From assembly GCA_963706575.1 (NCBI GenBank), contig CAVPNL010000012.1, positions 128,001-192,000 on the forward strand: DNA of 64,000 nt, given 5' to 3'. The stretch is from an uncultured delta proteobacterium. Its GTDB lineage: Bacteria; Desulfobacterota; Desulfobacteria; Desulfobacterales; JAHEIW01. Of the stretch, positions 20,624 to 43,819 are shown one piece after another. Below the pieces are notes generated by a model. It had not been told where the DNA came from and did no database searches. It saw only the letters and a list, made by a program, of their open reading frames with translations. Both the position numbers and the translations under genes were made by a program. Every line of letters begins with the position of its first letter. Within the stretch, counting starts at the first letter, position 1.

Positions 20624-21209
20624 ATGTTTTCGACACATCAGTTTTATAATTTCCGTATTTTTATTTATATTAGTTATTTCATCTGGTTGTGGCGGCTCAT
20701 CTCCCAAAATAAACTCGACTTCTAAAGAAAACACCCTACTTCTCCAGAATAATATTCATGCCCAGGCCGGTTCGCGTGATACGAAAGCGAGTTATGCCAA
20801 TTGGACGGATCCTGGCGCCGGTCATATTATCATCCCTGTGAATACTCCAGTGGTATTCGGCGGATACCACAGGGGACTTACAATAAAAAACCTAAATGAT
20901 GGAAGATTCATTTATTTTGAGTATAATAGCAAAAACATGGGTATGAGTGCAGAACAATATATCAGCCTGATTACATCTTCGAAAAAAGTAAACCTGAGCG
21001 AATTATCAGAAACCGATCAAAAAGGGATCAACAGCGGAAAAGCTTTGGTTGGAATGTCAAAAAAGGGCGTTAGAATTGCCCTGGGCTATCCCGCAGCTCA
21101 CCGAACACCGTCTTTAAAAAATAACTCATGGATCTATTGGCGCAATAGATTTAAAACGAAAGTGATCGAATTCGATACGGAAGGCAAAGTAAAAAAGATC
21201 CGATTTTGA
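20624..21209 (+). pseudogene. Lipoprotein with BamE/SmpA-like C-terminus, paralog 2 (extra T after ATG)
   Basis: Removing one T from ATGTTTTCGA gives MFRHISFIISVFLFILVISSGC (lipobox) continuing into GMSKKGV..LGYPAAHRTPSL..WIYWRNRF. Confidence 0.75.
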
Positions 21210-21221
21210 CGGAGGCCAAGG

Positions 21222-21947
21222 ATGGGCAAGCGAATCGCACTGGTAACCGGAGCAAGCAGAGGTATCGGAGCTGCTATTGCCACGGTTCTGGCACAAGATG
21301 GCTTTGATCTCTGGCTTAATTACAGAAGCAACCATGAAGCGGCCGAAAGGGTTAAGAATGAGATCGAGCAAACCAACGCACAGTGCCGGCTGTTGCCTTT
21401 TGATGTTTCTGACTCCGAATCGACGCTGTCCGCATTGGATCCCTTGATTGAGAAAGAAACGCCGTATGTACTTGTAAACAATGCTGGTTTTACCAGGGAC
21501 ATGCTGATGATTTGGATGAATCAAAATGACTGGAAGGATGTTTTGTCCGTCACGTTAGATGGGTTTTTCCACGTAACAAGAGCAGTGATCAAAGGCATGT
21601 TGACAAAACGCAGGGGTCGAATCGTCAACATTGTTTCCACTTCCGGTCAAAGCGGTATGGCCGGTCAGGTGAACTATTCTGCCGCCAAAGCGGGGTTGAT
21701 TGGCGCCACAAAAGCATTGGCCGCTGAGGTTGCAAAACGCAATGTATTGGTAAATGCGGTGTCTCCAGGATTCATTGAGACTGAAATGATAAAAGATATT
21801 CCAAAAGAAAAAGTGTTGCCCATGATCCCCATGCAACGGTTTGGCACCCCCGAAGAAGTCGCTGCAGCTGTCAGATTTTTATGCTCCAATCAAGCATCTT
21901 ATATTACCGGGCAAATTATAGCAGTCAATGGCGGAGTTTACATGTAA
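21222..21947 (+). CDS. fabG: 3-oxoacyl-ACP reductase
   Basis: TGASRGIG, NNAG, YSAAK, VSPGFIET. Confidence 0.93.
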   Translation: MGKRIALVTGASRGIGAAIATVLAQDGFDLWLNYRSNHEAAERVKNEIEQTNAQCRLLPFDVSDSESTLSALDPLIEKETPYVLVNNAGFTRDMLMIWMNQNDWKDVLSVTLDGFFHVTRAVIKGMLTKRRGRIVNIVSTSGQSGMAGQVNYSAAKAGLIGATKALAAEVAKRNVLVNAVSPGFIETEMIKDIPKEKVLPMIPMQRFGTPEEVAAAVRFLCSNQASYITGQIIAVNGGVYM

Positions 21948-22070
21948 AATCTGGATAGCCTGTTTTTATGGCATTTTTTAGAGTTGTAATTTTTAATCAA
22001 ATTTATACAAATTTGCCGCTGAAACAGAACAAGTACTGGTCTATCCCCTCATCGTCTTTGGAAAAAATTT

Positions 22071-23288
22071 ATGCACCGAGTAGCAATTACAGGCATCGGT
22101 ATTGTTTCCTGCATCGGAAACAATATCCAAAAAGCTGCAGAATCATTGCGACTGGGCAAATCCGGGATTGCGATCGATGCAGAACGAATAAATATCGGGT
22201 TTCGCAGCCCTCTTACAGGCGTCATACGGGATTTTAAGGCCACCGACTTTTTAACACGTAAACAGCGCAAAACCATGGCAGATTTCACCATCCACGCCTA
22301 TGCCGCTGTAAGGGAGGCGCTGGACATGTCCGGGCTTAGTGATGAAGAAGTGCAAAGTCCGGATACGGGACTAATATTCGGATGTGATTCCAGCTGCATT
22401 GCGGCTGTAGAACAGGTAGAACTGCTGCGCAAGCATGAGGAAACAAAGTACATCGGAAGCGGTCATGTTTTCCGCTCGATGACATCAAATATCACCATGA
22501 ATTTGAACACCATTTTAAAAACAAAAGGCGCCTGTTGGACAATCAGCTCAGCATGTTCCAGTGGGGGGCATGCCGTCGGTCAGGCGGCGGATCTTATCGC
22601 TCTCGGCCGGCAGGATCGAGTCATTTGCGGTGGCGCTCAGGAAATTAATTGGGAATCCATGTGCAGCTTTGATGCACTCGGGGCATTCTCGATGCGAATT
22701 GAAGAACCGGAAGCAGCCTGCCGCCCATTTGACGCTCAACGCGATGGCCTTGTTCCCAGTGGCGGTGCTGCTGCGCTTGTTTTAGAACAATATGACATGG
22801 CCAAACAGAGAGGCGCAAAAATTCTAGGTGAAATCAAAGCGTATGGTTTTTCTTCAGACGGGACCCACATTTCTGTTCCGAGTCATGAAGGCCTCACAAC
22901 CGTTATGCAAAAAACGCTGGGTAGTGCAAACCTACAACCCTCTGAAATAGAATATATTAGCGCCCATGCCACCTCGACTCCTGTTGGCGATTCCATAGAG
23001 GCACAAAGTATCACTGCAGTTTTCGGTGAAAAAACGCCATGGGTCTCCTCGTTGAAGTCCATGGTCGGCCATGAACTCTGGATGGCGGGCGCATCTAGTG
23101 CGGTTTACTCGATAATCATGGCACAGGAAGGATTCATCGCCAAAAACCTGAATTTTCATGAGCCGGATGAAGATTCTAAGAAGCTCAATATTGTAACTGA
23201 AACAATCACCAAAGCACCTGAAACCATTTTATGCAATGCCGCCGGATTTGGTGGCTCAAACGCTTGCGTTATTATAAAGTGTGAATAA
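22071..23288 (+). CDS. Beta-ketoacyl-ACP synthase KS1 (FabB/F family)
   Basis: Cys-His-His triad: SSACSS, SAHATST, VGHEL. Confidence 0.93.
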   Translation: MHRVAITGIGIVSCIGNNIQKAAESLRLGKSGIAIDAERINIGFRSPLTGVIRDFKATDFLTRKQRKTMADFTIHAYAAVREALDMSGLSDEEVQSPDTGLIFGCDSSCIAAVEQVELLRKHEETKYIGSGHVFRSMTSNITMNLNTILKTKGACWTISSACSSGGHAVGQAADLIALGRQDRVICGGAQEINWESMCSFDALGAFSMRIEEPEAACRPFDAQRDGLVPSGGAAALVLEQYDMAKQRGAKILGEIKAYGFSSDGTHISVPSHEGLTTVMQKTLGSANLQPSEIEYISAHATSTPVGDSIEAQSITAVFGEKTPWVSSLKSMVGHELWMAGASSAVYSIIMAQEGFIAKNLNFHEPDEDSKKLNIVTETITKAPETILCNAAGFGGSNACVIIKCE

Positions 23289-24778
23289 TGAAATATGATT
23301 ACGTTGTAATCGGAGCCGGTGTTTCCGGAATGACAACGGCGATCATCCTCGCAAAAAACGGCTTTGATGTTGCTTTAGTCGAAAAATCTAAAAAAACGGC
23401 ACCATTAATTAGAGGGTTCACTCGCAACGGTATTTATTTTGACACCGGTTTTCACCACACGGGCAGCCTGGGCAAAAATGAAATATTAGATATTTTATTT
23501 CACTATTTAGGTCTGTCCGACAGATTGGAAAAAGAGCCTTACAACCCGGATGGTTTTGACCTTCTTCGTTGCAAGCAATCCGGTTTCGAATTTCGATTTC
23601 CATACGGCTATGAACGTATCCGGGAACGCTTGCTTGAAAAATTTCCCGGCGAAGCAAAAGCCGTTAAAAAATACCTGGTAGAAATCAAGGAGACCTTCGA
23701 TTCCTTTCCCTATATTAAACTCGATCCTGGTCGATTGGAAATAAGCATCCAAAAAAGTGTGCAGGGACCCAGCCTGAAGGAATTTTTAGATCATTCAACA
23801 GACAACCAACAATTAAAATGGGTGCTTTCACTGCACTGTTTGCTGCACGGTGTTCCCCCGGAGGAAGTACCTTTTGCCTATCATGCGTGCGTTGCCGGTT
23901 CATATTACGAATCAGTCCACCGTATCAAAGGGGGCGGAATGTGTCTGGCCAAAGCCTATGACAGCCAGCTAAAAGACCTCGGAGTCGATGTCTATTGCGG
24001 TCAGGCGGCAGTTGAAATTTACATCTCATCAGATCACTCTCCTTCGGGAATCCGCCTAAAAGACGGTACAGAGCTACATTGCCGGGGTTGTGTCTCAACA
24101 ATTCATCCAAGAAGCTTCCTAAACCTTTTACCGGACACCATCTTCCGGCCCGCCTATCGAAAACGCTTGCAGCAACTGGAGGAGACGTGTTCGGCCTTTA
24201 TTCTCTATGCCGGTTGCAGTACCTTGCCGCAATCATTAACCCGCAACAACTTATTACTCACATCCGATTGGGACTTAACCGGGCTCCGACCAAAAGATCC
24301 GTTGGAAAATCGACCTTTATATGTTTGCCAGGCGCATCAACCAAATGGCAAAGCTTCAAACAAGGGACTAATTGCTATCGTACCTGCATCAAGTGCACAA
24401 ACAGATCGTTGGTCGGATTCCATGCCGGGACAACGTCCGCAAGATTATATTCAATTTAAGGAAAGCACCGGCCATAAATTCAAACGACACATTGAGGACT
24501 GCCTACCGGATATCGTTGGGAATATCCAATTTGCGGAGTGTTCGACTCCATTAACGTTAAGAGATTTTGCAAATAACCCGTTTGGCAGTATTTACGGAGT
24601 CAAACATAAGGTCGGTCAATACAATCCCGTACCTGTAACAAAAGTAAAAGGCCTGTATCTGGCCGGCCAGGCCACGGTGGCACCGGGAATCCTGGGCACT
24701 GTCATTTCAGCTTTTCTGGTCGGTGGATTTATCCTGGGGCATGGGCAACTTATAAAGCAACTTCAGAAATATAAATGA
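23288..24778 (+). CDS. Phytoene desaturase/retinol-saturase-like FAD oxidoreductase
   Basis: VIGAGVSG, FDTGFH, STPLT..F...GSIYG, LYLAGQ...PGILG. Confidence 0.88.
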   Translation: MKYDYVVIGAGVSGMTTAIILAKNGFDVALVEKSKKTAPLIRGFTRNGIYFDTGFHHTGSLGKNEILDILFHYLGLSDRLEKEPYNPDGFDLLRCKQSGFEFRFPYGYERIRERLLEKFPGEAKAVKKYLVEIKETFDSFPYIKLDPGRLEISIQKSVQGPSLKEFLDHSTDNQQLKWVLSLHCLLHGVPPEEVPFAYHACVAGSYYESVHRIKGGGMCLAKAYDSQLKDLGVDVYCGQAAVEIYISSDHSPSGIRLKDGTELHCRGCVSTIHPRSFLNLLPDTIFRPAYRKRLQQLEETCSAFILYAGCSTLPQSLTRNNLLLTSDWDLTGLRPKDPLENRPLYVCQAHQPNGKASNKGLIAIVPASSAQTDRWSDSMPGQRPQDYIQFKESTGHKFKRHIEDCLPDIVGNIQFAECSTPLTLRDFANNPFGSIYGVKHKVGQYNPVPVTKVKGLYLAGQATVAPGILGTVISAFLVGGFILGHGQLIKQLQKYK

Positions 24779-26004
24779 GACGAGTCGTCATAACAGGGAT
24801 GGGCGCCGTTTCGCCCTATGGTAAAGGTGTGGATACCTTTATCGAGTCTTTAATCGAAGGCAAAAGTGCGATAACTTCTGTAGCAAATTTGGCTGATATC
24901 AAGGGGCTCAGAAGCTGGGTGGCCGGTTTGGTCGATGGCATTGATCCAAATGAAATCCCCCGAAAATATCGGCGTTCGATGTCCAGCATGTCGATCTACG
25001 CGACACTGGCCTGCCGGGAGGCTCTGGATCAGGCTCGCTTGAATGCCGAACAATGCACCGGCGGCCAGATGGGGGTGGCTATTGGGTCAACAATCGGCAG
25101 TACCCAGACAACCCAGGAATTTTTTAATAACCTTCTGTCCACCGGGGGTCTCGAACAGATGAAATCCACGGTTTTTTTTAAAATCATGAGTCACTCGTGT
25201 GCCGCCAATGTATCGCAGATACTGGGCATAACCGGCAGGACCCTCTCGCCTTCGGCGGCCTGCTCAACCAGTTGCCAGGCGATTGGTTATGGATATGAAA
25301 TGATCGCTTTCGGGAAACAGGACTTTATGCTTTGCGGGGGAACCGACGAGTACCATCCGCTGTTTACGGGAACATTTGACATCTTGAATGCTGCCTCGGT
25401 TAAGTTCAATGATCAACCTTCTCGAACGCCACGCCCCTTTGATCGCGACCGGGACGGGGTGGTTTGTTCCGAGGGCAGCGGTATTCTGCTACTGGAATCT
25501 CTGGATTCGGCCGAGAAACGGGGAGCGAATATTCTTTGCGAAATCATCGGATTTGCAACTGTTTCGGATCCGTCCAATATCGCCAATCCGGATATGGCCT
25601 CCATCAAAAGATGTATGCAACTTGCATTGAACGATGCAAGCATTAAACCGGAGGAAATCGACTATGTCAATGCACATGCCACATCCACTAAACAGGGTGA
25701 TATTGTAGAAGGCGAGGCTATTTCGGAATTATTCGGAGATGATACGCCGGTAAGTTCTTTTAAAGGACATCTGGGCCATACAATGGCTGCCAGCGGAGCA
25801 CTGGAGTCAATTGCATTGGTAGAAATGATCAACCGCGGTTGTCTGATCCCCACCTTGAATCTGGAAAATATAGATGACGCCTGCGGCAATATTCGGCATA
25901 TCTGTGAGCTGGAAATAACACGCATTAAGACCGCGATCAAAAATAATTTTGCACTGGGCGGCATCAATTCATCATTGGTAATACGGAGATATAAAGATGA
26001 CTGA
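24775..26004 (+). CDS. Beta-ketoacyl-ACP synthase KS2 (FabF-like)
   Basis: SAACST, NAHATST, LGHTMAASG, NNFALGG. Confidence 0.93.
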   Translation: MRRVVITGMGAVSPYGKGVDTFIESLIEGKSAITSVANLADIKGLRSWVAGLVDGIDPNEIPRKYRRSMSSMSIYATLACREALDQARLNAEQCTGGQMGVAIGSTIGSTQTTQEFFNNLLSTGGLEQMKSTVFFKIMSHSCAANVSQILGITGRTLSPSAACSTSCQAIGYGYEMIAFGKQDFMLCGGTDEYHPLFTGTFDILNAASVKFNDQPSRTPRPFDRDRDGVVCSEGSGILLLESLDSAEKRGANILCEIIGFATVSDPSNIANPDMASIKRCMQLALNDASIKPEEIDYVNAHATSTKQGDIVEGEAISELFGDDTPVSSFKGHLGHTMAASGALESIALVEMINRGCLIPTLNLENIDDACGNIRHICELEITRIKTAIKNNFALGGINSSLVIRRYKDD

Positions 26005-26263
26005 CCAGCAGATCATCGATTTAATAAATACATCTCTCGAGGAAGAATTCGAGTTGGAAGAAGAAGATATGAAACCAGATGCTTCCCTTTTTGATGATCT
26101 GGAACTGGACAGCCTGGACATCGTGGATCTGGTGGTCGTTTTGGAGAGGGCCTTTCAGTTTAAAATCCGGGAAGAAGATTCCATCCAGGAGATTCGAACC
26201 CTTGGGGATATTCATCGATTCGTAATCAACAAAAAAAGGGGCTTAACAAGCGATAAGACATGA
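25997..26263 (+). CDS. Acyl carrier protein
   Basis: Acidic 88-aa protein with LELDSLD phosphopantetheine motif. Confidence 0.93.
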   Translation: MTDQQIIDLINTSLEEEFELEEEDMKPDASLFDDLELDSLDIVDLVVVLERAFQFKIREEDSIQEIRTLGDIHRFVINKKRGLTSDKT

Positions 26264-27144
26264 CATGGCCTCAATCAATTCGTACAATGCGGCCGGTGAA
26301 CTTTCTGCTTATTCCTTTAATGAACCTAACCGCTCTGCCGTTAATGCTGTTGTGGACGGCGGTAGGTATTTTTCTTTTTCCTGCGCTTTTTTTCATTTTG
26401 AAAGCCGCCACCCGCTGGAACGCTGAGCAGATAACGCGTCGGTTAATCTGGGTTTACGGCCGTGGGTGGCTCGCTATTATGCTGCCATTTATCCGATCTG
26501 AGCTGATCGGAATAAAACAGGATAAGATAAAACCACCCTGTATTTATGTGGCAAATCACCTCTCTTTTTTTGATATCTACTGTCTGGCTGTCCTTCCCTC
26601 TTTCAATATCAGTATTGCCATTCGGAACTGGCCCTTTAAAATGTACTGGTACGCGCCGTTCATGCATATGGCCGGGTACATCAATGTCGAAAATAAAAAG
26701 TGGGAAGAAATCTTTGAATCCGCTGCTCACATATTATCAAACGGAGGGGCACTCCTGTTCTTCCCCGAAGGTCACCGCAGCCGTAGCGGAGAATTGCAAC
26801 GGTTTTATTCCGGCGCTTTTAAGCTGGCGGTCGAAACGGGTGCCAAAATTGTGCCGCTCTGTATTAAGGGAACCAACGAAGTTTTGCCGCCCGGCCGTTG
26901 GTGGCTTAGCCCCGCCAAGGTCACTATAAAAGCACTCGAGCCTGTAGATCCCAAATCCCTTGCGGATTCCTCTTCTCATCGTTTGATCCGAAAAACAGTT
27001 AAAAACATGATGAGACAGAGCTTGGCGGAAATGACTTTAGAACTCCGCTGGCAACACCGATATCGCCGGATCGGAATGCAGCTTATAAATCCAAAAATTC
27101 GTCCAACAAACGGCCATTCAAGCTTAATGCATAAATTAAGGTAG
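26260..27144 (+). CDS. 1-acyl-sn-glycerol-3-phosphate acyltransferase-like (PlsC family)
   Basis: ANHLSFFD, FFPEGHRS, FYSGAF. Confidence 0.9.
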   Translation: MTWPQSIRTMRPVNFLLIPLMNLTALPLMLLWTAVGIFLFPALFFILKAATRWNAEQITRRLIWVYGRGWLAIMLPFIRSELIGIKQDKIKPPCIYVANHLSFFDIYCLAVLPSFNISIAIRNWPFKMYWYAPFMHMAGYINVENKKWEEIFESAAHILSNGGALLFFPEGHRSRSGELQRFYSGAFKLAVETGAKIVPLCIKGTNEVLPPGRWWLSPAKVTIKALEPVDPKSLADSSSHRLIRKTVKNMMRQSLAEMTLELRWQHRYRRIGMQLINPKIRPTNGHSSLMHKLR

Positions 27145-27170: not shown

Positions 27171-27611
27171 TTGCCTTCACCTGCAGAAGCCCTCATCCCA
27201 CATCGAAAACCCCTGTGCATGATCGACCGGTTGATCGACGTTAAAGATCGTGGCGGAACGGCCGAGGCTGAAGTCACATCTGATAATGTCATGGTGGATG
27301 AGGCTGGACAGCTTGATCCTTTTGCGACAGCGGAAATGATTGCCCAAACATATGCAGCGGTAAAAGGATATGATGTTCGTCTTTCCGGCAAGCCGGTAAA
27401 ACAGGGATTTCTGGTGGGCATACGGAAAATTCAGTTTTTGAAATTGGCATTTGTCGGTGATGTTTTACAAATTAACGTCGATACGGTAGGCGCTATTTCT
27501 GGATTTGCAGTGGTTAAGGGTCAGGTTACTCGTAATCAGGAAGTCATCGCCGAAGGGGAAATAAAATTGTGGATTCAATCTAAAAATCTAATGGAACCCG
27601 GAAGTAAATGA
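27171..27611 (+). CDS. Hotdog-fold 3-hydroxyacyl-ACP dehydratase (ApeP-like)
   Basis: LIPHRKP..MIDRL, EMIAQT.AA..G, GFLVGI; true start may be the frameshifted ATG 27152. Confidence 0.85.
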   Translation: MPSPAEALIPHRKPLCMIDRLIDVKDRGGTAEAEVTSDNVMVDEAGQLDPFATAEMIAQTYAAVKGYDVRLSGKPVKQGFLVGIRKIQFLKLAFVGDVLQINVDTVGAISGFAVVKGQVTRNQEVIAEGEIKLWIQSKNLMEPGSK

Positions 27612-28240
27612 ATTTTGTAATTATTATAGCTCTCATTTTGTCTTTACCCGCTTTTGTTCTGAGTCAAACAAGGTCTGAAAATTCGGATAACCGCAACAGG
27701 ATTTTTTCGGAAATTGCCAGCTCGGCATCTCAGGTCGAGACATTTTCATGTGATTTTTTACAGGAAAAATACATGAGCATTTTGGATAATGTCCTTATAT
27801 CAAAAGGCCGGCTTTATTATAAGCGCAATAACCGACTGCGGTGGGAAATAAACCATCCGGCAACTTCAGGATTTGCCGTAAACGGTGATCAGGCGAAACG
27901 ATGGGAAGGCGATTCCGGGCGAACACAGACATTTAAAGTCAACCAGGTCCCGTTTATCAAAGTTTTTACAGACCAGGTATTTTCATGGGCCAGCGCTGAT
28001 TTCAAGCGGTTGAAGAAACGCTATCATATTAAGGTGCTAAGTGACAAACCGATACAGCTGATGCTATTGCCGATTTCCCCACAGGAAAAAAAATATCTGG
28101 ACAACTTTCGAATTTCCTTCACTGCCGACGCCAGTTATGTCAGTGCGGTTGAAGTACATGAGCCGGACGGCGATTTCACCCGAATTCATTTTTTGAATAC
28201 CGTAATTAACCACCCCTTGCCTGACAGTCTGTTTAATTGA
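27608..28240 (+). CDS. LolA-like outer-membrane lipid/lipoprotein carrier
   Basis: Signal peptide; FSCDFLQEK, SKGRLYYKR..LRWE, EPDGDFTRIHF. Confidence 0.85.
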   Translation: MNFVIIIALILSLPAFVLSQTRSENSDNRNRIFSEIASSASQVETFSCDFLQEKYMSILDNVLISKGRLYYKRNNRLRWEINHPATSGFAVNGDQAKRWEGDSGRTQTFKVNQVPFIKVFTDQVFSWASADFKRLKKRYHIKVLSDKPIQLMLLPISPQEKKYLDNFRISFTADASYVSAVEVHEPDGDFTRIHFLNTVINHPLPDSLFN

Positions 28241-30618
28241 TCATGTCTTCTATTGTAGCTGATCTGTATCTTTTTTTTTCACACCGCAGGCCAATGGTCT
28301 TTGTTGCAACCCTGGCGGTCATCGTCATATCCGCCATCGCCTTTGTTAATTTAAATTTAAACGAAAACATCGAGTCCATGCTACCTGACCGCAAAACCGA
28401 TACGGCATTGAATTTCAGCCTTTTGCAACAGGCGCCGTTTTCACGCAAGGTCATCATCAACCTGAATAAACAGGCCAATATCCATGGCAATGAATTGGTG
28501 GAAATAACCGACCGTCTTGCAGAAGCCATGACTCCTCCCTTTTTTACACGGGTTGTTACCGGTCCCGGGGAGTCTTTCAATTTGGATTTTTTCTCGTGGT
28601 TAGTCCATGTTTACCCAAGCCTAATCGCAGATGAAGATATCAATAGACTACAGCAGACATTGACCGCTGAAAAGGTTCGCAAAGAGCTCAACGAATTGCA
28701 TGCAAAACTTTTGAGCCCTGAAGGTTCGGCTTTGAAAAGGCTTTTTCAGGCTGATCCGCTGGGTTTTAGGTTCAATGTTTTAGAGAAACTGCGATTTTTA
28801 AATATCATCCCCAGGATGCGTCTTGAAAACGGTCACTTTATCAGTCCCGACGGCAAGAACGTCCTCATACTGGCAGAGACTCCATATAAAATAACAGATG
28901 TCGAGCACGGCAGAGAAATGCTAACTCACTTTCAAGCTCTCCTTGCCAATGTTGTTCCCGATAATATTACCGTATCGATGATCAGCGGTCACCGTTACAC
29001 ATTAGCAAACATTGATGCCGTTAAAAAGGACATTGCAATTATCCTAATCTGCTCGTCTCTTGGGATTTTCATTATATTTCTAGTATTTTTAAGATCAGTG
29101 GGAGGGATTTTTGTTTTCTTAATACCAATTTGCGTGCTGTGCATCGCTGCTGCCTGCGTTTCGGTGTTTTACAGAACCGTATCAGCTGTCACGATAGGGT
29201 TCGGCGCCGTTCTACTTGGCATATCGGTCGATTTTGCCATACACGTATATTTTGCAATGCGTTCCGATCCAAGCAACCCCCCGGAAGCGATCGCTCAGGT
29301 GTCGCGCCCAATTTCATTTTGCGCATTGACAACGCTTGGCGCTTTTGGCGTGCTGTCCTTTTCCAGCCTGCCTGTTCAGCGCGAACTTGCAGTGTTCTCC
29401 ATCATTGGCGTCTGTGCATCCTTAATCTTGTCGCTGACTATTTTGCCCCACGTGGTGCACCCCCCGCAAATACCGAAAAAAAATGAGGAACCTTACATTA
29501 AAAAAGAATTGCGCTTGGCCCGAAAATGGTTGGTTTACGGCTGGCTGGCAATTCTCGTCATTTGTGCTTGGCAGGGCACCAAACTTCATTTTGATGGGGA
29601 CTTGCGCTCCTTAAACCTGGTGCCGGATGAAATTCGCGACTTGGAGAATACACTGCAGCGTACCTGGGGAAATTTCAGGGGCACAGCGGTTATTTTCGCC
29701 GAAGGACCGGATCTTCAAACCGCCCTGGAAACCAACGATCGCATCTTTAGGCATTTAACCCGTAACCCCAACTCGAGTCCAATCGTAAGTTTAGCAGCCA
29801 TACTACCATCTCTGAAAACCCAGCAGTCAAATCGCCAACGCTGGAATGCGTTTTGGTCCGATGAAAGAAAGGAATACATCAACCAGCTTTTAACTGCTGA
29901 GGGAAAATTAATCGGGTTTAAGCCCACTGCTTTTGAACCCTTTGATAGACTTATTGCGGGGCCGTCACCCCCGGTGACGGTGGAAGCTTTACGGATAATT
30001 GGATTGGCAGAAATAGTCGATACGTTGATCATCGGTGACGGTAAAAATGTGAAAGTGTTGACGTTGGTGCCGGATACTCCGGAGATTGCCGCCCTGTTGA
30101 ATCATATTGATTTCGACCGCTCCGGGATACAATTTGCATCTCAAAATCAATTTCGGCAGACAATCAGCAAAGCAATCGCAGATGATTTCAGCCATTTTAT
30201 TTTAACGGCATCTGTGGTGGTTATTCTTTTATTAGGCTTATTTTTTCGGAATCTAAAAAAGGTTTTACTTGCGCTCATACCGGTTGTTACCGGAATGCTC
30301 TTTATGGTCGGTGTGATGGGCGGGTTGGGTATTGCCTTCAACTTGTTCAATATTGTGGCCGCAATTTTAATTATCGGATTAGGGGTTGATTACGGCATTT
30401 TCATGGTTTCTAAAATTTCGCAGGGCTCGGACGCGGCCATCCAAAGGGCAGTTTTTGTATCCGGGTTAACGACCTTGGCCGGATTCGGAGCCCTTGTTTT
30501 GGCTCGCCATCCGGCCCTGCATTCTATAGGACTTTCGGTGTTAGTGGGCATCAGCGCAGCCATACCGTCGGCATTGCTGGTCATTCCAGCGATGTACCGC
30601 AAAAAGAATGAAAATTAG
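28237..30618 (+). CDS. MMPL/RND-family exporter (ApeM-like)
   Basis: Two TM bundles with GISVDFAIH and GLGVDYGIF motifs; large periplasmic loops. Confidence 0.92.
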   Translation: MIMSSIVADLYLFFSHRRPMVFVATLAVIVISAIAFVNLNLNENIESMLPDRKTDTALNFSLLQQAPFSRKVIINLNKQANIHGNELVEITDRLAEAMTPPFFTRVVTGPGESFNLDFFSWLVHVYPSLIADEDINRLQQTLTAEKVRKELNELHAKLLSPEGSALKRLFQADPLGFRFNVLEKLRFLNIIPRMRLENGHFISPDGKNVLILAETPYKITDVEHGREMLTHFQALLANVVPDNITVSMISGHRYTLANIDAVKKDIAIILICSSLGIFIIFLVFLRSVGGIFVFLIPICVLCIAAACVSVFYRTVSAVTIGFGAVLLGISVDFAIHVYFAMRSDPSNPPEAIAQVSRPISFCALTTLGAFGVLSFSSLPVQRELAVFSIIGVCASLILSLTILPHVVHPPQIPKKNEEPYIKKELRLARKWLVYGWLAILVICAWQGTKLHFDGDLRSLNLVPDEIRDLENTLQRTWGNFRGTAVIFAEGPDLQTALETNDRIFRHLTRNPNSSPIVSLAAILPSLKTQQSNRQRWNAFWSDERKEYINQLLTAEGKLIGFKPTAFEPFDRLIAGPSPPVTVEALRIIGLAEIVDTLIIGDGKNVKVLTLVPDTPEIAALLNHIDFDRSGIQFASQNQFRQTISKAIADDFSHFILTASVVVILLLGLFFRNLKKVLLALIPVVTGMLFMVGVMGGLGIAFNLFNIVAAILIIGLGVDYGIFMVSKISQGSDAAIQRAVFVSGLTTLAGFGALVLARHPALHSIGLSVLVGISAAIPSALLVIPAMYRKKNEN

Positions 30619-36107: not shown

Positions 36108-37562
36108 ATGAAAGCATTAAATCTTAACAATATCTTACTGGTTCACCCTTTAGGTTACCCCGTTGCCGAAGCAAAAAAGGATATTTCGCGCATGGCCAAC
36201 ATCATGCCGCCGCTGGGGCTGGCAAGCATGGCGGCCTACCTGCAGGGACAGGGCATCGATTGTGCGATTGTCGACTGTTTTGCAAAGCCGGGTTCAGACG
36301 AATTGATAAAAGACTATCTATTGACGCAACGGCCAGCCTTTATGGGCCTGAGTTGCACAACTTCGAGCTTTCTGGACGGTATAAGGATCGTCAAATTGGC
36401 CAAGTCGATTCTGCCGGATCTCCAGGCAGTTTTCGGCGGAGCGCATGTATCTGCTTTGGGAAAAAAGGTTCTCGACAGCTTTAAAGAAGTGGATTGCGCT
36501 GTGGTGGGTGAAGGGGAGCACACGCTTGCCGAACTGATTAAAAACGGATCCAGAGGCTATGATGCGATTAAGGGTATCGTCTATCGAAATAGCGATGGAG
36601 AAGCACAATTTACGGGCTACCGGGAGGGCATTGATCTCGACACCCTTCCCTTTCCGGCTTATGAGAAGCTTAACGGATACCCGAGGACTTATCGTTTACC
36701 GATATTCAACTATCCGAAATCACCCAATACCAGCTGCATATCCAGCCGGGGCTGCCCTTATAAATGCAGTTACTGTGATCGGTCGGTATTCCGTAGCTCG
36801 TATCGCTATAATTCCGCCGAATACCTTTATGAACATCTCCGTTATCTGAAGCGTCGTTTTGGGCTAAAACATATTAACTTCTACGATGATCATTTCACTC
36901 TGAACCGCGAGCGCGTTGAAGATTTTACGCAATTGATGATTGAAAAGCCCTTAGGAATGACCTTTAACTGTGCCGTCCGAGCAGAGCATATCGACCGCGA
37001 ACTGCTTCAGCAAATGAAAGCTGCCGGTTGTTGGATGATCAGTCTGGGTATCGAAACGGGAGATGAAAACCTTTTAGCCCAACATCGCCAAAACGCAAAT
37101 CTTGGATTGCTCGCAGAAAAAATACATCTGATCAAAGAAATCGGAATACGCACCAAAGGGCTCCTGATGATGGGATTACCCGGAGAGACGGCAGACAGCA
37201 TAAAAAAAAGCATGCAATATGTTTTTAGATTGCCGTTGGACGACTTCAACTTGTCTAAATTCACGCCTTTTCCGGGTTCTCCAATTTATGAAAATATTCG
37301 TCAGTTTGGTACGTTTGAAGAGGAATGGCCGAAGATGGATTGTATGCACTTTTTGTTCGTTCCCAATGGCATGACCCGAGTTCGTTTGGAACAACTCTTT
37401 AAAAACTTTTACAAGATACATTTTCTACGCCCGAAAGTTATTTGGCAATATGTGTCCATGCTGTGGAAATCGCCTGACAGCTGGATCCGTTTTGTGCTAA
37501 ACATTAGAGATTTTATCAGATTCGCAATGACTGATAAACGAAAAGGGAAGGTTTGCATTTAA
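36108..37562 (+). CDS. B12-binding radical SAM protein 3 (class B methyltransferase/BchE-like)
   Basis: MPPLGLAS.AA, FGGAH.S, GEGE, SRGCPYKCSYC, GIETG, MGLPGET, TPFPGS. Confidence 0.93.
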   Translation: MKALNLNNILLVHPLGYPVAEAKKDISRMANIMPPLGLASMAAYLQGQGIDCAIVDCFAKPGSDELIKDYLLTQRPAFMGLSCTTSSFLDGIRIVKLAKSILPDLQAVFGGAHVSALGKKVLDSFKEVDCAVVGEGEHTLAELIKNGSRGYDAIKGIVYRNSDGEAQFTGYREGIDLDTLPFPAYEKLNGYPRTYRLPIFNYPKSPNTSCISSRGCPYKCSYCDRSVFRSSYRYNSAEYLYEHLRYLKRRFGLKHINFYDDHFTLNRERVEDFTQLMIEKPLGMTFNCAVRAEHIDRELLQQMKAAGCWMISLGIETGDENLLAQHRQNANLGLLAEKIHLIKEIGIRTKGLLMMGLPGETADSIKKSMQYVFRLPLDDFNLSKFTPFPGSPIYENIRQFGTFEEEWPKMDCMHFLFVPNGMTRVRLEQLFKNFYKIHFLRPKVIWQYVSMLWKSPDSWIRFVLNIRDFIRFAMTDKRKGKVCI

Positions 37563-37594
37563 TTAAATGACCCCAAACAAAAGGAGCAGAAAAA

Positions 37595-38194
37595 ATGAAA
37601 CCACTTTTAGCTTTAGTTGCAGTCCTTACCTTAATGTTTGCATTCGGCTGTGCGGAGACTGGCAAGGACATACAAAAGAAAATCCAAGTTGAAGAAGCGC
37701 CCCCGGAGGTGCAGCAATATACGGCCTACAATATCTGGCGCCTGAGGTCCTGGAATATGAGATGTATCAACTATAAGTATGACAACAATTTCATACCTGC
37801 GGGAACGAAAGTCAGTGATGTAAAAATTTCAGATGACGCGAGTGGAATCACGAGGATTTCCTTTGAGACAGCTGATGACAACCGCAAATACGGCATCTAT
37901 TTCACAAGTAAATGGCATCCCGGTCATACCATCGAGGACTATAAAAATTACATGTTCACAACCAAAACTTTCGAAGAATTAACTGCAAATATGAGCGACA
38001 GGGAAATCGGTGCGATTAAAAGTGGCGTAATTGTAGATGGGATGAGTAAAGAGGCGGTACTCGTGGCCTATGGAAGGCCACCGGAGCACAGAACTTCCAG
38101 CCTTGAGAGAAATATATGGTACTATTGGCGGAATAAATTTAGGCATTTCGGGGTTTGCTTTGACAAAGAAGACAGGACCACTTTCTGCAAGTAA
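37595..38194 (+). CDS. Lipoprotein with BamE/SmpA-like C-terminus, paralog 3
   Basis: Lipobox AFGC; GMSKEAV..YGRPPEHRTSSL..WYYWRNKF; aligns along its length with 15525-16070. Confidence 0.85.
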   Translation: MKPLLALVAVLTLMFAFGCAETGKDIQKKIQVEEAPPEVQQYTAYNIWRLRSWNMRCINYKYDNNFIPAGTKVSDVKISDDASGITRISFETADDNRKYGIYFTSKWHPGHTIEDYKNYMFTTKTFEELTANMSDREIGAIKSGVIVDGMSKEAVLVAYGRPPEHRTSSLERNIWYYWRNKFRHFGVCFDKEDRTTFCK

Positions 38195-38405: not shown

Positions 38406-39584
38406 ATGTCTGATAAGCAATTAGTAGAAGTCAAACTGATGGTCGTTATTCCGGTGTATAACCATTCTACTTCATTACGTGAAGTTGTCGTGAGCGCCCT
38501 TGAGGTCAATGATTTGGTAATGGTAGTAGATGACGGCAGCACGGATGGAGGCATTGATGTCTTAGCAGACCTGGATGTTCAAATTCTTCAGCACTCGCGC
38601 AACCGGGGTAAAGGCGCTGCAATTATGACAGCAGTTAAAGCCTGCCACCAACTGGAAATTACGCATATGCTGACAATCGATGCTGACGGACAACATGATC
38701 CTTTTGAAATCCAAAAATTCCTTCCCAAAATTCGTTCGGAGCCTTTTTCAATTATTGTAGGAAAGCGTAATTTCCAAACTGCTAACGTCCCCGGATTGAC
38801 AAAATTTGGCAGGCATTTTTCAAATTTCTGGTTTCGTATTCAAACGGGGCAATCCCTCAGCGATACGCAAAGTGGTTTTCGTGCATATCCGCTGGTCGTT
38901 TTGGAAAATTTAAAATTGCGTGAAAAGCGCTTTGCCTTTGAAGTTGAGGTTCTGGTTAAGGCCGCCTGGGCCGGGGTGAAACTCCAAGAGGTCGATATTA
39001 ACGTAATTTACCCGCCTGCCGATGAAAGAATTTCTCATTTTGAAGTCTTTAGGGACAACTGGCAAATTAGTCTACTTAACACCAAATTAACCCTGATGTC
39101 CTTGTTTCCGATACCTCACCGCCAGATTTTAGGTGAATACAAAAATGAAGAAAAAATCACTCTGCGACATCCTATTCGCTCTATAAAAAAATTACTAACT
39201 CAAAAAATGTCTCCTGGAAAATTGGCAGCCGCAGGCGCCTTAGGTGTATTACTGGGGACATTGCCGCTGATCGGCGTTCACACGATTACCATACTTATCG
39301 CTGCAGGTTTTTTTCGATTGAACAGGATGGTGGCTTTGAGTACCAGCCAAGTGTGCATGCCGCCATTGGTTCCGGCGTTGTGTATTGAGATAGGTTATTT
39401 TTTGCGGCACGGTAAATTTTTAACAGAGATTTCATTACAAACCCTTGGATATCAAGCATTGGAGCGTTGCTATGAATGGCTGATTGGATCGATATTGCTT
39501 GCGCCAGTACTTGCTGTTTTAATTGCGGGAGTCATTTACATAATGGCCTCTTTTATAAAAAGGACAGTCCGTGCAACAGGATAA
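38406..39584 (+). CDS. Glycosyltransferase family 2 fused to DUF2062
   Basis: VVIPVYNH, VVDDGSTD, NRGKG, TIDADGQH, DTQSGFRAYP; C-terminal TM domain. Confidence 0.92.
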   Translation: MSDKQLVEVKLMVVIPVYNHSTSLREVVVSALEVNDLVMVVDDGSTDGGIDVLADLDVQILQHSRNRGKGAAIMTAVKACHQLEITHMLTIDADGQHDPFEIQKFLPKIRSEPFSIIVGKRNFQTANVPGLTKFGRHFSNFWFRIQTGQSLSDTQSGFRAYPLVVLENLKLREKRFAFEVEVLVKAAWAGVKLQEVDINVIYPPADERISHFEVFRDNWQISLLNTKLTLMSLFPIPHRQILGEYKNEEKITLRHPIRSIKKLLTQKMSPGKLAAAGALGVLLGTLPLIGVHTITILIAAGFFRLNRMVALSTSQVCMPPLVPALCIEIGYFLRHGKFLTEISLQTLGYQALERCYEWLIGSILLAPVLAVLIAGVIYIMASFIKRTVRATG

Positions 39585-40521: not shown

Positions 40522-40619
40522 AGCGATCTGACCATTCAGTTGCCTTGCATTCTCTAAAAAAAAATGTTTGGGAAACTCAAATACCGGCTTGAAAGAAGTG
40601 GTGAAAGGAATTAAGGATA

Positions 40620-40874
40620 ATGGTGCTGAATGAAAAGCTAAAAATCATAATTATTGAAGAATTGAATCTGGAAGATATAACCCCGGCAGATATCGATGAT
40701 GACGCCCCCTTGTTCGGCGAAGGATTGGGATTGGACTCCCTTGATGCCGTTGAGCTCGTCGTACAGGTTCAAAAATATTTTGGTGTGGAAATAAAAGATA
40801 TGGATGAGGGACGAGTAGCCTTTCAGTCCATAAATTCACTCAGTGATTTCATAGAGGAGCGCAGGAGCACATGA
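40620..40874 (+). CDS. Acyl carrier protein (aryl-polyene type)
   Basis: LNLEDITP.DIDDD.PLFGEGLGLDSLDAVEL. Confidence 0.93.
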   Translation: MVLNEKLKIIIIEELNLEDITPADIDDDAPLFGEGLGLDSLDAVELVVQVQKYFGVEIKDMDEGRVAFQSINSLSDFIEERRST

Positions 40875-42073
40875 GTTCCTTCCCTCCCGTTCCAGTAACC
40901 GGTATCGGCTGTTTGTGTGCTGCCGGTGCAAATCTGAACGAATGCATGGACTCCCTATTCGCCGGCAAGCGTAAACCGTTTCCACCCACCCGATTCTTCA
41001 AGCGACCATCAGGCAGCTTATCCAGTCTTTGAAATTTCCAACGCTTTTCCTGCCGGAAGCTCCAATCAAAGATCCGATATACTGTTTACCGCTGAACTGG
41101 CCCTCATCGCAGCAAAGGAGGCGATAGAAAATGCAGGATGGAACCGCGAAGCGCTCAAAACAAACAGAGTCGGTGTCTGTATCGGCACCACCGTCGGTAG
41201 TGCGATGAACAATGAAGAATTTTATCGTTCATACCGTAACGGAGAAAATCCGAACATGGAAGCCATTACCCGCTTTTTAAACAGCAATCCGGCTCAGGTT
41301 ATCGCCGCAGAATATTGGTTTGACCGGCCCCTGCCAAACAGTGGTTAATGCGTGTTCTTCTGGGACTGATGCCATCGGGTTAGGCGCATCCTGGATCCGT
41401 TCCGGTATGTGTGATGTCGTTCTGGCCGGAGGAGCGGATGAATTATGTCGGGTAACCTATAACGGTTTTATTTCTTTAATGATTACAGATGACTCTCCCT
41501 GCAAGCCATTTGATGCGAACCGCAAAGGTTTGAACCTGGGTGAAGGTTCGGCCGTTCTGGTTCTGGAGTCCTCAGATTTATGTCGCTCAAGAAACCAGCT
41601 CTGCACGGGCCTCGGTATTAAGTTTTGGCTCAGGGTGCGACGCCTATCATCTCACAGCCCCCGCACCGGATGGAAGAGGATTGAAGCAGGCTATTGCAGC
41701 GGCTATGGCTGCATGCGACAAAACCGCTGAACATGTTGCTTTTGTTAACGCCCATGGAACGGGCACACTCGATAATGACCGGGTTGAAAGTTTGGTTCTC
41801 AACGAATTGTTACCTCAAGTACCGTATCTGTCTACAAAAGGTTATACGGGTCATACCCTCGGTGCCGCCGGAGCAATAGAAGCCGCATTCACGATTGCCT
41901 GCCTGGAAGCGGGAAAGATTCCTGCCTCTGCCGGTTTTGAAACCCCGGATCCAGAACTGCCGACAACACCGGTTAAACATCAGACAGCTGTGAATGGCTC
42001 AATTGCTATTACACAATCACTTGCATTTGGCGGCAACAACGCAGTTGTTATTTTCGGAAAAGGTGATTCTTAA
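40871..42073 (+). pseudogene. Beta-ketoacyl synthase KS4 (about three frameshifts)
   Basis: VTGIGCLCAAG, GVCIGTTVG, VVNACSSG (Cys), NAHGTGT, GHTLGAAG, SLAFGG. Confidence 0.85.
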
Positions 42074-42074
42074 T

Positions 42075-43172
42075 ATGCGAACAGCTATCAGGGGTATCGG
42101 TATCGTGGGCGGATTCGGATGCGGAATTGAAGACCTTAAAAAAGCTCTCATTTCCGGCAAAAGGACACCAAAAATGACTTCGCTGTCAATTAAAAATCAG
42201 ACGATTGAGATGCCGGTTTATCTTTGCGATACATTCCCGTGGAGCGGTTCGTTAACAAAAGAGCCTTAAGACGGGTCGATCATTTTTCCAGGTTGGCTGT
42301 GCTGGGGTCTTTTCTGGCGTTAGAAGATGCGAACGGTGCTCCAAGACGATCATCAAAATTTGGCCGTTGTCATTGCCACCGGATACGGTGCAAGCCAGAC
42401 AACTTTCTCTTTTCTGGATACGGCCTTTGATGACGGGGATGCCTGCGCTTCGCCAACCCTTTTTTCCAACTCGGTTCATAATGCGGCCGCAGCCCACGTT
42501 TCAATTTTGCTCAACGCAAGAGGCCCAAATTTAACCGTCAGCCAATTTGAAATGTCGGTACCTTCAGCAATGCTGACTGCCTGCCAGTGGCTGGAGGATA
42601 AAATCGTTGATGCGGTGCTTTTTGGGGGAGTCGATGAATACTGCAGCGTGCTGGGTTACTGCTGGCAGCGCTTTTTCGGAGCCGGATCCCCAGTTCAGCA
42701 TGAAGCCATTGGAATGGAGTACCAAAGCGCCATCACCGGCGAAGGATCCGCCTTTTTTCTTTTAACCCGGGATGAAGGGGATAAACCCAAATATGGTTTT
42801 ATAACGAGATATTCAAATTGGCCATGTCAGAAAGTATAAGCCACAAGGTCCCAGAAGATGCCTTTTTGTTTTTGGGTGCCGATGGACAAAAATCCTCCGG
42901 TACTCACTATGCGCTGTGTTTCCGCAAGGTACACCCTCCGCGGTCTATACACCACTATTACGGCAGTTTTCCGGCCGGTTTTGCATTTGATATGGCGATC
43001 GCCGGCTTAAGCATCCAAGAACGCACGATTTATGCTACGCCTGAGCATGCCGGCGACAATTCCGGGCTGAAAATTGTTAGGGAGGAACAACGATCTCGTG
43101 TCTGAACAAATCTGTTGTCTTAAATTCAGCTGCGAAGGTGAATTCGCGATGATTACAATGAGCGTAACATAA
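42075..43172 (+). pseudogene. Chain-length-factor-like KS (ApeC-like; several frameshifts)
   Basis: MRTAIRGIG.., LRRVDHFSRLA, ASPTLFSNSVHNAAA, GGVDE, GEGSAFF; no catalytic Cys. Confidence 0.8.
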
Positions 43173-43213
43173 GACTGATAGATTACTACAAATATGGAGA
43201 AACCGAGAAGCCC

Positions 43214-43819
43214 ATGCAAATGAAAAAATCCATTGTTAAGTATATGTTACCAAATCTCTGGCCGCTTTTTCTATGTTTTCTCTGTCTGATGATTTTTCCG
43301 CAGGCGACATCCGCTGAAGATGACAATACAGAAAAAGTTCCTGATCGCTATGGGGCAGCCTCAATAATCGGGTACAATTACGACCCGTCCGAAAATATCG
43401 TTTTCGGATTGCTTTCAGGATTTGCCTTATATGACTACGACAAGATATGGCCACATGCCGCTCCCGAAGCGCTTCGCTTTAAAGTGGAAGTTAGTGCTGG
43501 AGCGACGTTGAAAAATGAAAAGGGCGTCATCCTATCCGCAGGATTTCTGGCTCTTTATTATCTGGACAGTTTGGCCGGACGCGGTCTGCGCCCCTATGTA
43601 GAAGGGGGTATCGGAGGCATTTTTACACAATGGCGGGTTGACGGCCAGGGGTCCAACGTCAATTTTAACCCGCAAATCGGAGTGGGAACGGAATTTTCCC
43701 TTGGATCCGGCCCACCGTTTCTGGCGGCACTGAGGCTTCATCATATATCCAACGCCGGCCTTGCCGATGACAACCGGGGTGTCAACTCAGTTGTATTCGT
43801 ACTTGGCCGTTTCTTTTAA
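43214..43819 (+). CDS. Acyloxyacyl hydrolase / lipid A 3-O-deacylase (PagL-like beta-barrel)
   Basis: Signal peptide; PYVEGGIG, NFNPQIGVG, HHISNAGL..NRGVN catalytic motif; C-terminal Phe. Confidence 0.88.
   Translation: MQMKKSIVKYMLPNLWPLFLCFLCLMIFPQATSAEDDNTEKVPDRYGAASIIGYNYDPSENIVFGLLSGFALYDYDKIWPHAAPEALRFKVEVSAGATLKNEKGVILSAGFLALYYLDSLAGRGLRPYVEGGIGGIFTQWRVDGQGSNVNFNPQIGVGTEFSLGSGPPFLAALRLHHISNAGLADDNRGVNSVVFVLGRFF

What the first reader, a model, noticed from the sequence alone, without database searches (positions are those of the whole stretch)
20624..43819. Hybrid aryl-polyene/ladderane-like lipid cluster with three tandem B12-radical SAM enzymes and no aryl starter module
Seen in sequence: one translationally coupled operon with many ATGA/TAATG overlaps. 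It encodes FabG, 4 KS with intact Cys-His-His, 2 CLF-like KS, 2 different ACPs, 2 hotdog dehydratases and a thioesterase. It also encodes a CrtI-like flavoenzyme, 3 adjacent cobalamin/radical-SAM proteins, GT2-DUF2062, PlsC- and LpxL-type acyltransferases, LolA, MMPL and a PagL-like barrel. Established: this scaffold mirrors ape-type aryl-polyene clusters. B12-rSAM/FASII islands shared between anammox Kuenenia and some deltaproteobacteria were proposed for ladderane or unusual polyunsaturated lipids (TIGR04072 family). Seen: no AMP-dependent acyl-ACP ligase, ammonia-lyase or SAM O/C-methyltransferase in the window. Inference: the two ACP/KS sets build two chains. These may be radically methylated, cyclised or cross-linked without oxygen, attached to a glycolipid and exported to the outer membrane. 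The product would be an uncharacterised, possibly non-aryl lipid.
Basis: partly seen in the sequence, partly recalled or inferred. Interest (0 to 1): 0.85.

Follow-up and report, generated by a model that had tools for sequence, protein, structure and literature searches.

The report
Starter-less polyene-lipid gene cluster
This 24-gene cluster is one more copy of a widespread lipid gene cluster of anaerobic bacteria, noted since 2009 and still without a known product; it likely builds an exported polyene glycolipid, and it belongs to a recurring variant that lacks the two genes predicted to supply the aromatic starter.

Summary
The gene inventory is real, but 7 of 24 genes (2 KS, both CLFs, 2 rSAMs, a lipoprotein) are frameshifted in this assembly. 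These are most likely assembly errors: a 90%-identical metagenome copy is intact, dN/dS is 0.08-0.26, no nonsense codons appear against it, and the genome's only fabF is split too. rSAM2 is a TIGR04072 member. The cluster belongs to the 'ladderane-like', flexirubin/aryl-polyene-type family of Rattray 2009. Three tandem rSAMs are the family norm (41 of 69 GTDB loci). The 'no aryl starter' claim holds: the genome's only lyase is HutH in a hut operon, and no FlxY-type ligase passes the cut-off. However, 26 of 32 informative GTDB loci carry a lyase-ligase cassette upstream of DH1. It was lost repeatedly (at least 5 changes on a tree; remnants in two loci) while the rest stayed conserved. Best model: a two-chain outer-membrane polyene glycolipid like APEL, radically tailored, with a non-aryl or borrowed starter. 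A host benzoate-CoA ligase keeps 'aryl in trans' alive. Nothing supports ladderanes directly. This scan met the family many times before on other DNA.

The parts
20624..21209 (+). Lipoprotein 1 (start ATG appears out of frame with the body; probable 1-nt error)
   Evidence: Frames; orthologues (46-55%) lead the same operon in G061, G062, G064, G265, G123
21222..21947 (+). FabG ketoreductase, closest model flexirubin FlxB
   Evidence: NF053542 326.7 bits, cut-off 340
22071..23288 (+). KS1, FabB-like, Cys-His-His
   Evidence: PRK07967 379 bits, below cut-off; motifs
23288..24778 (+). CrtI-like flavoprotein (desaturase or reductase, unknown)
   Evidence: crtI-family models about 95 bits, far below cut-offs; one weak PDB hit
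24775..26004 (+). KS2, ApeR-like, Cys-His-His
   Evidence: Top PDB hit 7F27, E 9e-94; 7F27 = AbApeR
25997..26263 (+). ACP1
   Evidence: PP-binding; PRK05350 63.3 bits, cut-off 65; no ApeF hit at E<=1e-8
26260..27144 (+). PlsC-type acyltransferase (ApeD-like role inferred); tail altered by a 1-nt indel
   Evidence: PF01553; indel near 27041 versus L167
27042..27170 (.). PlsC-DH1 junction: where most relatives carry the ligase + ammonia-lyase cassette; empty here
   Evidence: 26 of 32 GTDB loci have the lyase directly upstream of DH1; no remnant in the window
27171..27611 (+). Hotdog dehydratase DH1
   Evidence: FabZ models E 1e-10
27608..28240 (+). LolA-like carrier
   Evidence: PF03548; LolA2_flexi 113.8 bits, cut-off 125
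28237..30618 (+). MMPL/RND exporter (ApeM-like role inferred)
   Evidence: PF03176, two stretches
30621..31007 (+). Hotdog dehydratase DH2, ApeI-like
   Evidence: PF22818 above cut-off
31004..31465 (+). 4HBT thioesterase (ApeK-like role inferred)
   Evidence: PF13279, PF03061
31462..32596 (+). KS3, in three reading-frame pieces here
   Evidence: intact orthologue in L167 scores best on cispentacin AmcF, 222.6 bits, cut-off 325
32593..33336 (+). CLF1, half-size inactive KS, frameshifted here
   Evidence: 10 single/double-base indels versus both L167 and L128
33441..34707 (+). rSAM1, B12-domain radical SAM; one frameshift near the C-terminus
   Evidence: model of the intact L167 orthologue matches AprD4/TsrM/MgmA at 14-16% identity
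34704..36063 (+). rSAM2, TIGR04072 member; one frameshift
   Evidence: 598.3 bits, cut-off 360; indel absent in relatives
36108..37562 (+). rSAM3, B12-domain radical SAM, intact
   Evidence: PF02310 + PF04055; no NCBIfam cut-off met
37595..38194 (+). Lipoprotein 2
   Evidence: No Pfam hit; Atlas neighbours unnamed lipoproteins, BamE domain in 20% of one cluster
38406..39584 (+). GT2-DUF2062 glycosyltransferase
   Evidence: PF00535 + PF09835
39571..40521 (+). LpxL-type acyltransferase (with GT2, the equivalent of ApeJ; inferred)
   Evidence: PF03279
40620..40874 (+). ACP2, ApeE-type
   Evidence: Top PDB hit 9LS6, E 5e-18, next hit 3e-7; 9LS6 = ApeE
40871..42073 (+). KS4, in four reading-frame pieces here
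   Evidence: intact orthologue scores best on PRK09185, 279.8 bits, cut-off 407
42075..43160 (+). CLF2, inactive KS partner, frameshifted here
   Evidence: PF13723
43214..43819 (+). PagL-like outer-membrane barrel
   Evidence: PF09411 67.4 bits; HHISN motif

Best explanation
The cluster is a starter-less copy of the TIGR04072-type flexirubin/aryl-polyene-like gene family and likely builds a two-chain polyene glycolipid that is predicted to be radically tailored and exported to the outer membrane, with a chain likely primed by a non-aromatic unit. Shown: gene set, family membership, absence of a dedicated lyase and ligase, repeated loss of that cassette, purifying selection on the rest. Inferred by analogy to APEL: ACP2 (ApeE-type) with KS4/CLF2, FabG and DH1/DH2, and no enoyl reductase in the cluster, gives a conjugated polyene. 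ACP1 with KS1/KS2 (ApeR-like) gives a second acyl chain, adjusted by the CrtI-like flavoprotein and put on a lysophospholipid by PlsC. GT2 adds a sugar and LpxL acylates it with the polyene. MMPL, LolA, the lipoproteins and the PagL-like barrel move or trim the lipid. The rSAMs would act on ACP-bound chains, most simply by C-methylation. Priming would come from malonyl decarboxylation by a KS/CLF pair or a short FAS acyl group. The frameshifts are most likely assembly errors.
For: Gene-for-gene parallel with apeA-R and the APEL structure. ACP2 is closest to ApeE and KS2 to ApeR. FabG, LolA and the family's optional ligase, DarG and DarH score best on flexirubin models. The only lyase in G000 is HutH (698.7 bits, cut-off 539) beside urocanase and FTCD. 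The best FlxY score in G000 is 207 against 455 for the family ligase. No chorismate lyase found. Cassette remnants at the junction in L032 and L017. At least 5 state changes forced on the MMPL tree. 16 of 40 rSAM3-bearing genomes have no lyase match at all. Starter-less copies keep the core invariants and dN/dS is 0.05-0.36 in 17 of 18 cluster genes versus L167, DH1 0.61. rSAM1 orthologues sit beside a KS, usually a KS/CLF-like pair and sometimes an ACP, in 13 of 14 distant loci. An anammox KS/CLF pair makes acetoacetyl-ACP from malonyl-ACP on its own.
Against: No product is known for any member, and no expression was shown. ACP2 keeps its ApeE likeness, and no diagnostic residue change marks starter-less KS4, CLF2 or ACP2, so the starter may still be aromatic. 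G000 has a benzoate-CoA ligase above cut-off among 56 hits to that model. G000 is 91.8% complete with 6.4% contamination. ACP1 did not hit ApeF. The window lacks the ApeN-position membrane gene and the DarG/DarH/ABC genes seen in many relatives. The closest solved rSAM is AprD4, a dehydratase, so neither methylation nor cobalamin use can be transferred.
Confidence: 0.48

Rival explanations
1. It is an ordinary aryl-polyene lipid cluster whose aromatic starter (benzoyl-, hydroxybenzoyl- or phenylacetyl-CoA) is borrowed from the host's anaerobic aromatic metabolism; the rSAMs tailor the ring or the chain.
For: Benzoate-CoA ligase over cut-off and six full-length FlxY/PaaK-like ligases at 135-207 bits. 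ACP2 is ApeE-type. No compensating change in starter-less copies. Most GTDB loci carry the aryl cassette.
Against: No linked ligase. Both cassette genes are lost together and repeatedly. I did not test whether other starter-less genomes have aryl-CoA ligases of the benzoate type.
Confidence: 0.3
2. The rSAMs and KS3/CLF1 build carbocycles or cross-links (ladderane-like or cyclopentane-like) in an aliphatic chain.
For: rSAM2 is TIGR04072 and shares motifs with Kuste3342; rSAM1 resembles Kuste3608/2803 (both judged by eye from supplement text). The KS4 orthologue's top PDB hit is 9S5H_B and CLF2 hits 9S5H_C, probably the anammox heterodimer (my inference; the code is not in the preprint text). 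KS3 scores best on ring-forming AmcF.
Against: D. psychrophila with a syntenic cluster had no ladderanes. Heterologous expression of the Kuenenia genes gave no new lipids. All these similarities are below cut-offs. No AmcH-type ligase is present, which nearly all amc-type clusters have.
Confidence: 0.1
3. This copy is a decaying island: after loss of the starter, the KS/CLF and rSAM genes became pseudogenes.
For: Indels are far denser here than the genome background (5 of 135 genes, 0.04/kb; 40 alignment indels in 17.6 kb versus L167) and cluster in KS3, CLF1, KS4 and CLF2. The island is absent from 24 of 24 family genomes.
Against: All frame-breaking indels are 1-2 nt and of mixed sign, many compensating. 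No nonsense codon versus L167 (one in CLF1 versus L128). dN/dS in broken genes equals that in intact ones. Conserved columns are retained at 0.81-0.98 versus 0.77-1.0. Relatives in sediment runs lack the indels. The sole fabF and the benzoate ligase are also split, as are two unrelated island genes.
Confidence: 0.1

Closest known systems
'Ladderane-like' FASII/radical-SAM clusters of Kuenenia (kuste3335-3352), Desulfotalea, Geobacter and Pelobacter (Rattray 2009, PMC2649909); NCBIfam TIGR04072
   Same: TIGR04072 rSAM above cut-off, several divergent FabF paralogues including inactive ones, two ACPs, phytoene-dehydrogenase-like gene, FabG/FabZ, glycosyltransferase; product unknown.
   Different: No phenylacetyl-CoA-type ligase and no SAM methylases here; three B12-domain rSAMs, whereas Kuste3343 is a SPASM-type enzyme by its sequence; full export set.
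ape cluster and APEL lipids of Xenorhabdus doucetiae / E. coli CFT073 / A. baumannii (10.1101/2020.12.19.423268; PMC8253772)
   Same: KS/CLF, ApeR-like KS, ApeE-type ACP plus a second ACP, two dehydratases, KR, thioesterase, PlsC, GT2 + acyltransferase, LolA, MMPL, leading lipoprotein.
   Different: No ApeH ligase, no ApeB methyltransferase, no ApeG or ApeN; extra KS1, KS3/CLF1, CrtI-like protein, three rSAMs and PagL; all KS scores below curated cut-offs.
Flexirubin flx cluster of Chitinophaga pinensis (PMC3992019)
   Same: Many KS paralogues, FlxB-like KR, LolA2-like carrier; family members carry FlxA-like lyase, FlxY-like ligase, DarG and DarH.
   Different: This copy has none of the lyase, ligase, DarG or DarH genes; no DarA/DarB among its 24 genes; flx as described lists no radical SAM trio.
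Anammox cluster I (KustE3603-3608; bioRxiv 10.64898/2026.05.19.726425)
   Same: ACP + KS/CLF heterodimer + dehydratase + PDH-like enzyme + B12-rSAM logic.
   Different: Six genes only, with no glycolipid or export genes; similarity to this cluster is distant and its link to ladderanes is itself unproven.

Membership tests
TIGR04072 'ladderane-like' lipid island (Rattray 2009) | TIGR04072 radical SAM above cut-off | tested here: met
   598.3 bits versus 360; 682 for the intact L167 copy
TIGR04072 'ladderane-like' lipid island (Rattray 2009) | At least two FASII genes plus rSAM and phytoene-dehydrogenase-like accessory genes | tested here: met
   criterion read
TIGR04072 'ladderane-like' lipid island (Rattray 2009) | Phenylacetyl-CoA-ligase-like gene in the cluster | tested here: not met
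   Absent from the cluster; best genome hit 29% identity, FlxY model 207 bits
Aryl polyene (ape) | Core KS, CLF, ACPs, DH, KR and transporter (antiSMASH-based list in Grammbitter 2020) | tested here: met
   All functional types present; orthology is distant and antiSMASH itself was not run
Aryl polyene (ape) | Dedicated aryl-loading ligase (ApeH/FlxY) and aromatic starter source | tested here: not met
   a generic benzoate-CoA ligase exists elsewhere
Aryl polyene (ape) | Aryl-polyene product | not testable with these tools
   Needs lipid chemistry
Flexirubin (flx/dar) | FlxA tyrosine ammonia-lyase and FlxY ligase | tested here: not met
   Only HutH in the genome; family lyases score 439-477 on FlxA, cut-off 700
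Flexirubin (flx/dar) | DarA/DarB dialkylresorcinol genes | tested here: inconclusive
   Not among the 24 cluster genes; the rest of the genome was not searched for them
Ladderane biosynthesis (anammox cluster I) | Orthologues of amxACP, amxFabF2/FabFmut and Kuste3608 | tested here: inconclusive
   ACP2's top hit is ApeE; KS4 orthologue's top hit is 9S5H_B at 215 bits versus 193 for generic FabF; rSAM1 likeness judged by eye only
Ladderane biosynthesis (anammox cluster I) | Ladderane lipids produced | not testable with these tools
   None found in D. psychrophila
Cobalamin-dependent (class B) radical SAM | N-terminal B12-binding domain plus CxxxCxxC barrel | tested here: met
   rSAM1 is marginal in Pfam (30.6 versus 32.1)
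Cobalamin-dependent (class B) radical SAM | Actual cobalamin binding and methyl transfer | not testable with these tools
   Nearest structure is AprD4, a dehydratase

The most novel reading that the evidence does not exclude
The aromatic starter is only an optional cap. The fixed core (self-priming KS/CLF pairs plus three B12 radical enzymes) builds an oxygen-independent ring-bearing or cross-linked aliphatic glycolipid in the outer membrane of sulfate- and iron-reducers: an unknown lipid class that shares its radical chemistry with ladderane formation and can be studied in culturable strains.
Probability: 0.12. Interest if true: 0.85.

Novelty: new variant of a known kind. Interest (0 to 1): 0.42.

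Why it matters
The product and radical chemistry of this family have been open since 2009, and its enzymes are the nearest culturable stand-ins for the proposed ladderane enzymes. The useful addition here is that the lyase-ligase cassette is optional and was lost several times, leaving natural with/without pairs. A cultured isolate, Geothermobacter hydrogeniphilus HR-1, has the same starter-less gene order. Comparing such pairs would show whether the rSAMs act on the chain or on an aromatic head. This particular MAG copy is error-ridden and adds little by itself.

Tried and rejected
1) 'Starter genes elsewhere in the genome': rejected for a dedicated lyase/ligase. Identity alone is not a safe test, because the in-cluster lyase of G026 is only 35% identical to the L057 type; context was checked only for G000. 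2) Remnant of the cassette in the window junction: none found, nor in L021, L030, L041, L045. 3) Residues diagnostic of starter loss in 15 gene families: only two weak columns, rejected. 4) Promoter/terminator scan of 37500-44200: no excess over shuffles. 6) Celluxanthenes use a type I PKS and are unrelated (passages). 7) The Pelobacter genome paper does not discuss the cluster (passages). 8) Idea that the family lyase makes urocanate and HutH complements it: family lyases score 486-504 on hutH, below cut-off, the ligase would still be missing, and 16 of 40 genomes have no lyase; left open but unlikely. 9) The careful tree search did not finish; the quick tree was used, with three long branches. 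10) Literature searches found no paper giving a product for the deltaproteobacterial clusters or describing the starter-less form; subscription journals and bioRxiv supplements were not visible. antiSMASH, clinker and BiG-SCAPE could not be run.


Full report
Observation. Six-frame translation and profile scans recover 24 same-strand genes from 20624 to 43819: lipo1, FabG, KS1, CrtI-like, KS2, ACP1, PlsC, DH1, LolA, MMPL, DH2, TE, KS3, CLF1, rSAM1, rSAM2, rSAM3, lipo2, GT2-DUF2062, LpxL, ACP2, KS4, CLF2, PagL. Catalytic motifs are present. 11 of 23 junctions overlap. rSAM2 passes TIGR04072 (598 versus 360 bits). Seven genes are not intact ORFs in this assembly: KS3, CLF1, rSAM1, rSAM2, KS4, CLF2 and probably lipo1.

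The frameshifts. Genome background is 5 of 135 orthologues, 0.04 shifts per kb, so the cluster is strongly enriched. Even so, error is the better reading. A metagenome contig (L167, about 90% identical over the first 9.9 kb) holds 18 of the 24 genes, from PlsC to PagL, all as open frames. Against it the broken genes show dN/dS 0.08-0.26, like intact ones (0.05-0.61), no nonsense codons, and only 1-2 nt frame-breaking indels of mixed sign, many compensating; one stop appeared in CLF1 against L128. Contigs from six sediment or unlabelled runs lack the extra or missing bases at the listed sites (both tables were truncated). The genome's only housekeeping fabF is also split, as are a benzoate-CoA ligase, one core flank gene and two unrelated island genes. 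The source reads were not available, so very recent decay is not excluded.

Context. The host is probably a sediment Desulfobacterales MAG (inferred from homologue labels and run labels). The cluster lies in an island of about 32 kb: in G004, G007, G010 and G017 the genes at window 13.9-15.1 kb and 47.9-48.9 kb are neighbours. 0 of 24 same-family genomes carry an rSAM3 orthologue, while 38 of 400 other genomes of the class do.

The family. A GTDB scan with rSAM1 gave 69 loci, mostly Desulfuromonadales/Geobacteraceae, also Desulfobacterales, Planctomycetota, Nitrospirota and Hydrogenedentes. 41 of 69 carry all three rSAMs, or 39 of the 54 with at least 3 kb downstream, usually in the window's gene order. 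The trio is therefore the norm. This is the family Rattray 2009 described for Kuenenia, Desulfotalea, Geobacter and Pelobacter (PMC2649909, parts 1-4 of 7 and passages read); no ladderanes were found in D. psychrophila. Expression of the Kuenenia genes in E. coli gave no new lipids, and the CrtI-like proteins had no CrtI activity (PMC4790861, passages and supplement rows). A 2026 review still lists the radical step as unsupported by experiment (PMC13459092, passages). Earlier notes of this scan report the same family in many genomes; I take them as leads only.

The starter question. 26 of 32 GTDB loci with a visible junction have a lyase directly upstream of DH1, normally preceded by a ligase; 6 lack it and 1 could not be judged. 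With metagenome loci the count is 31 versus 10. The ligase scores best on flexirubin FlxY (455 bits, cut-off 520). The lyase is below all cut-offs (hutH 504, FlxA 477). Other optional genes are DarG and DarH. In C. pinensis FlxA and FlxY start the polyene from tyrosine (PMC3992019, part 1 of 5 and passages). In G000 the only lyase is HutH in a hut operon, the best FlxY score is 207, and no chorismate lyase was found. Ten other genomes whose loci showed no cassette have no close lyase, and nine of them searched have no close ligase. Of 40 rSAM3-bearing genomes, 14 have the common cluster lyase, 10 only distant lyases and 16 none; one of the 10 (G026) has a distant lyase inside its cluster, and rSAM3 is not always next to rSAM1. 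Two loci keep fragments of the cassette exactly at the junction: L032 (48 aa, 56%) and L017 (18 aa of each gene). An MMPL tree of 43 rows needs 6 changes, 5 forced by strongly supported branches; the window groups with starter-less L167 and L136 at support 99 (quick tree, three long branches). For those two metagenome loci only part of the cluster is visible. The same starter-less order occurs in G064 (Geothermobacter hydrogeniphilus HR-1), G265 and G123, the last two without rSAM2 and PagL. Starter-less copies keep the family invariants with no diagnostic change. So the cassette is optional and its absence is most likely derived.

Mechanism. APELs carry an aryl polyene on GalNAc and a conjugated fatty acyl chain on glycerol; the authors propose ApeE and ApeF as the two carriers, ApeD and ApeJ as transferases and ApeM/L/N for export (10.1101/2020.12.19.423268, whole main text; PMC8253772, parts 1-2 of 7). 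ACP2's top PDB hit is ApeE (PMC12624758 passages) and KS2's is ApeR (PMC8358021 passages). ACP1 did not hit ApeF. I infer a two-chain polyene glycolipid exported to the outer membrane. Without a ligase, priming could come from malonyl decarboxylation, shown for the anammox KS/CLF pair (10.64898/2026.05.19.726425, parts 1, 2 and 4 of 6 and passages; supplement closed), or from host aryl-CoA, since G000 has a benzoate-CoA ligase above cut-off. rSAM1 orthologues lie beside a KS, usually a KS/CLF-like pair, in 13 of 14 distant loci (mostly Fibrobacterota and Myxococcota), which favours an ACP-bound substrate. A model of the intact rSAM1 orthologue (pLDDT 84.5) matches AprD4, TsrM and MgmA at 14-16% identity, too distant to assign a reaction. 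C-methylation is the commonest class B reaction. KS3 scores best on the ring-forming AmcF but below cut-off and without AmcH (PMC10698177 abstract and one section).

Verdict. A real cluster and a gene-content variant of a catalogued, chemically unsolved family. It works like an ape/flx cluster but fails the starter-module test for either. My searches found no paper on the product or on the starter-less form. Interest 0.42.

Noticed in passing
window 45033-46580 (-), with 43947-44888 (-) and 46736-47587 (+): An RPE65/carotenoid-oxygenase-family gene (PF03055 370 bits; best NCBIfam model lignostilbene dioxygenase, below cut-off), a HEAT-repeat gene and an alpha/beta hydrolase follow the cluster inside the same island. 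The RPE65 and HEAT genes were found in only one other fetched locus, L167. An oxygenase-family gene beside a polyene cluster in a probable anaerobe is unexplained.
   Followed up: partly
window 15476-16073 and 17766-18867: A third lipoprotein paralogue (46% to lipo2) and an FMN-reductase/SCP2 gene at the left end of the island; both frameshifted against G005.
   Followed up: partly
G000 C6:825606-826846 (L215) and C8:319824-321357: The only housekeeping fabF and the benzoate-CoA ligase are each split by one frameshift; other findings on split genes in this MAG should be treated with caution.
   Followed up: partly
L021:12782-15762; similar-sized ORF pairs in L064, L131, L132, L176: A GT1-type glycosyltransferase plus a hydrolase-radical SAM-SPASM fusion is inserted between the rSAMs and GT2 in some copies (Pfam checked for L021 only).
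   Followed up: partly
L068-L081: A portable rSAM1 + KS (+CLF-like, +ACP) unit recurs in Fibrobacterota, Myxococcota and others without the rest of the cluster; it resembles anammox cluster I in logic.
   Followed up: partly
L126 (G063), L014, L015, L210 (G062): Other modular changes: G063 lacks the CrtI-like gene as well as the starter cassette; L014/L015 lack KS3/CLF1 but keep all three rSAMs; many Geobacteraceae copies lack GT2; G062 has a second KS1-CrtI-KS2-ACP1 copy.
   Followed up: no
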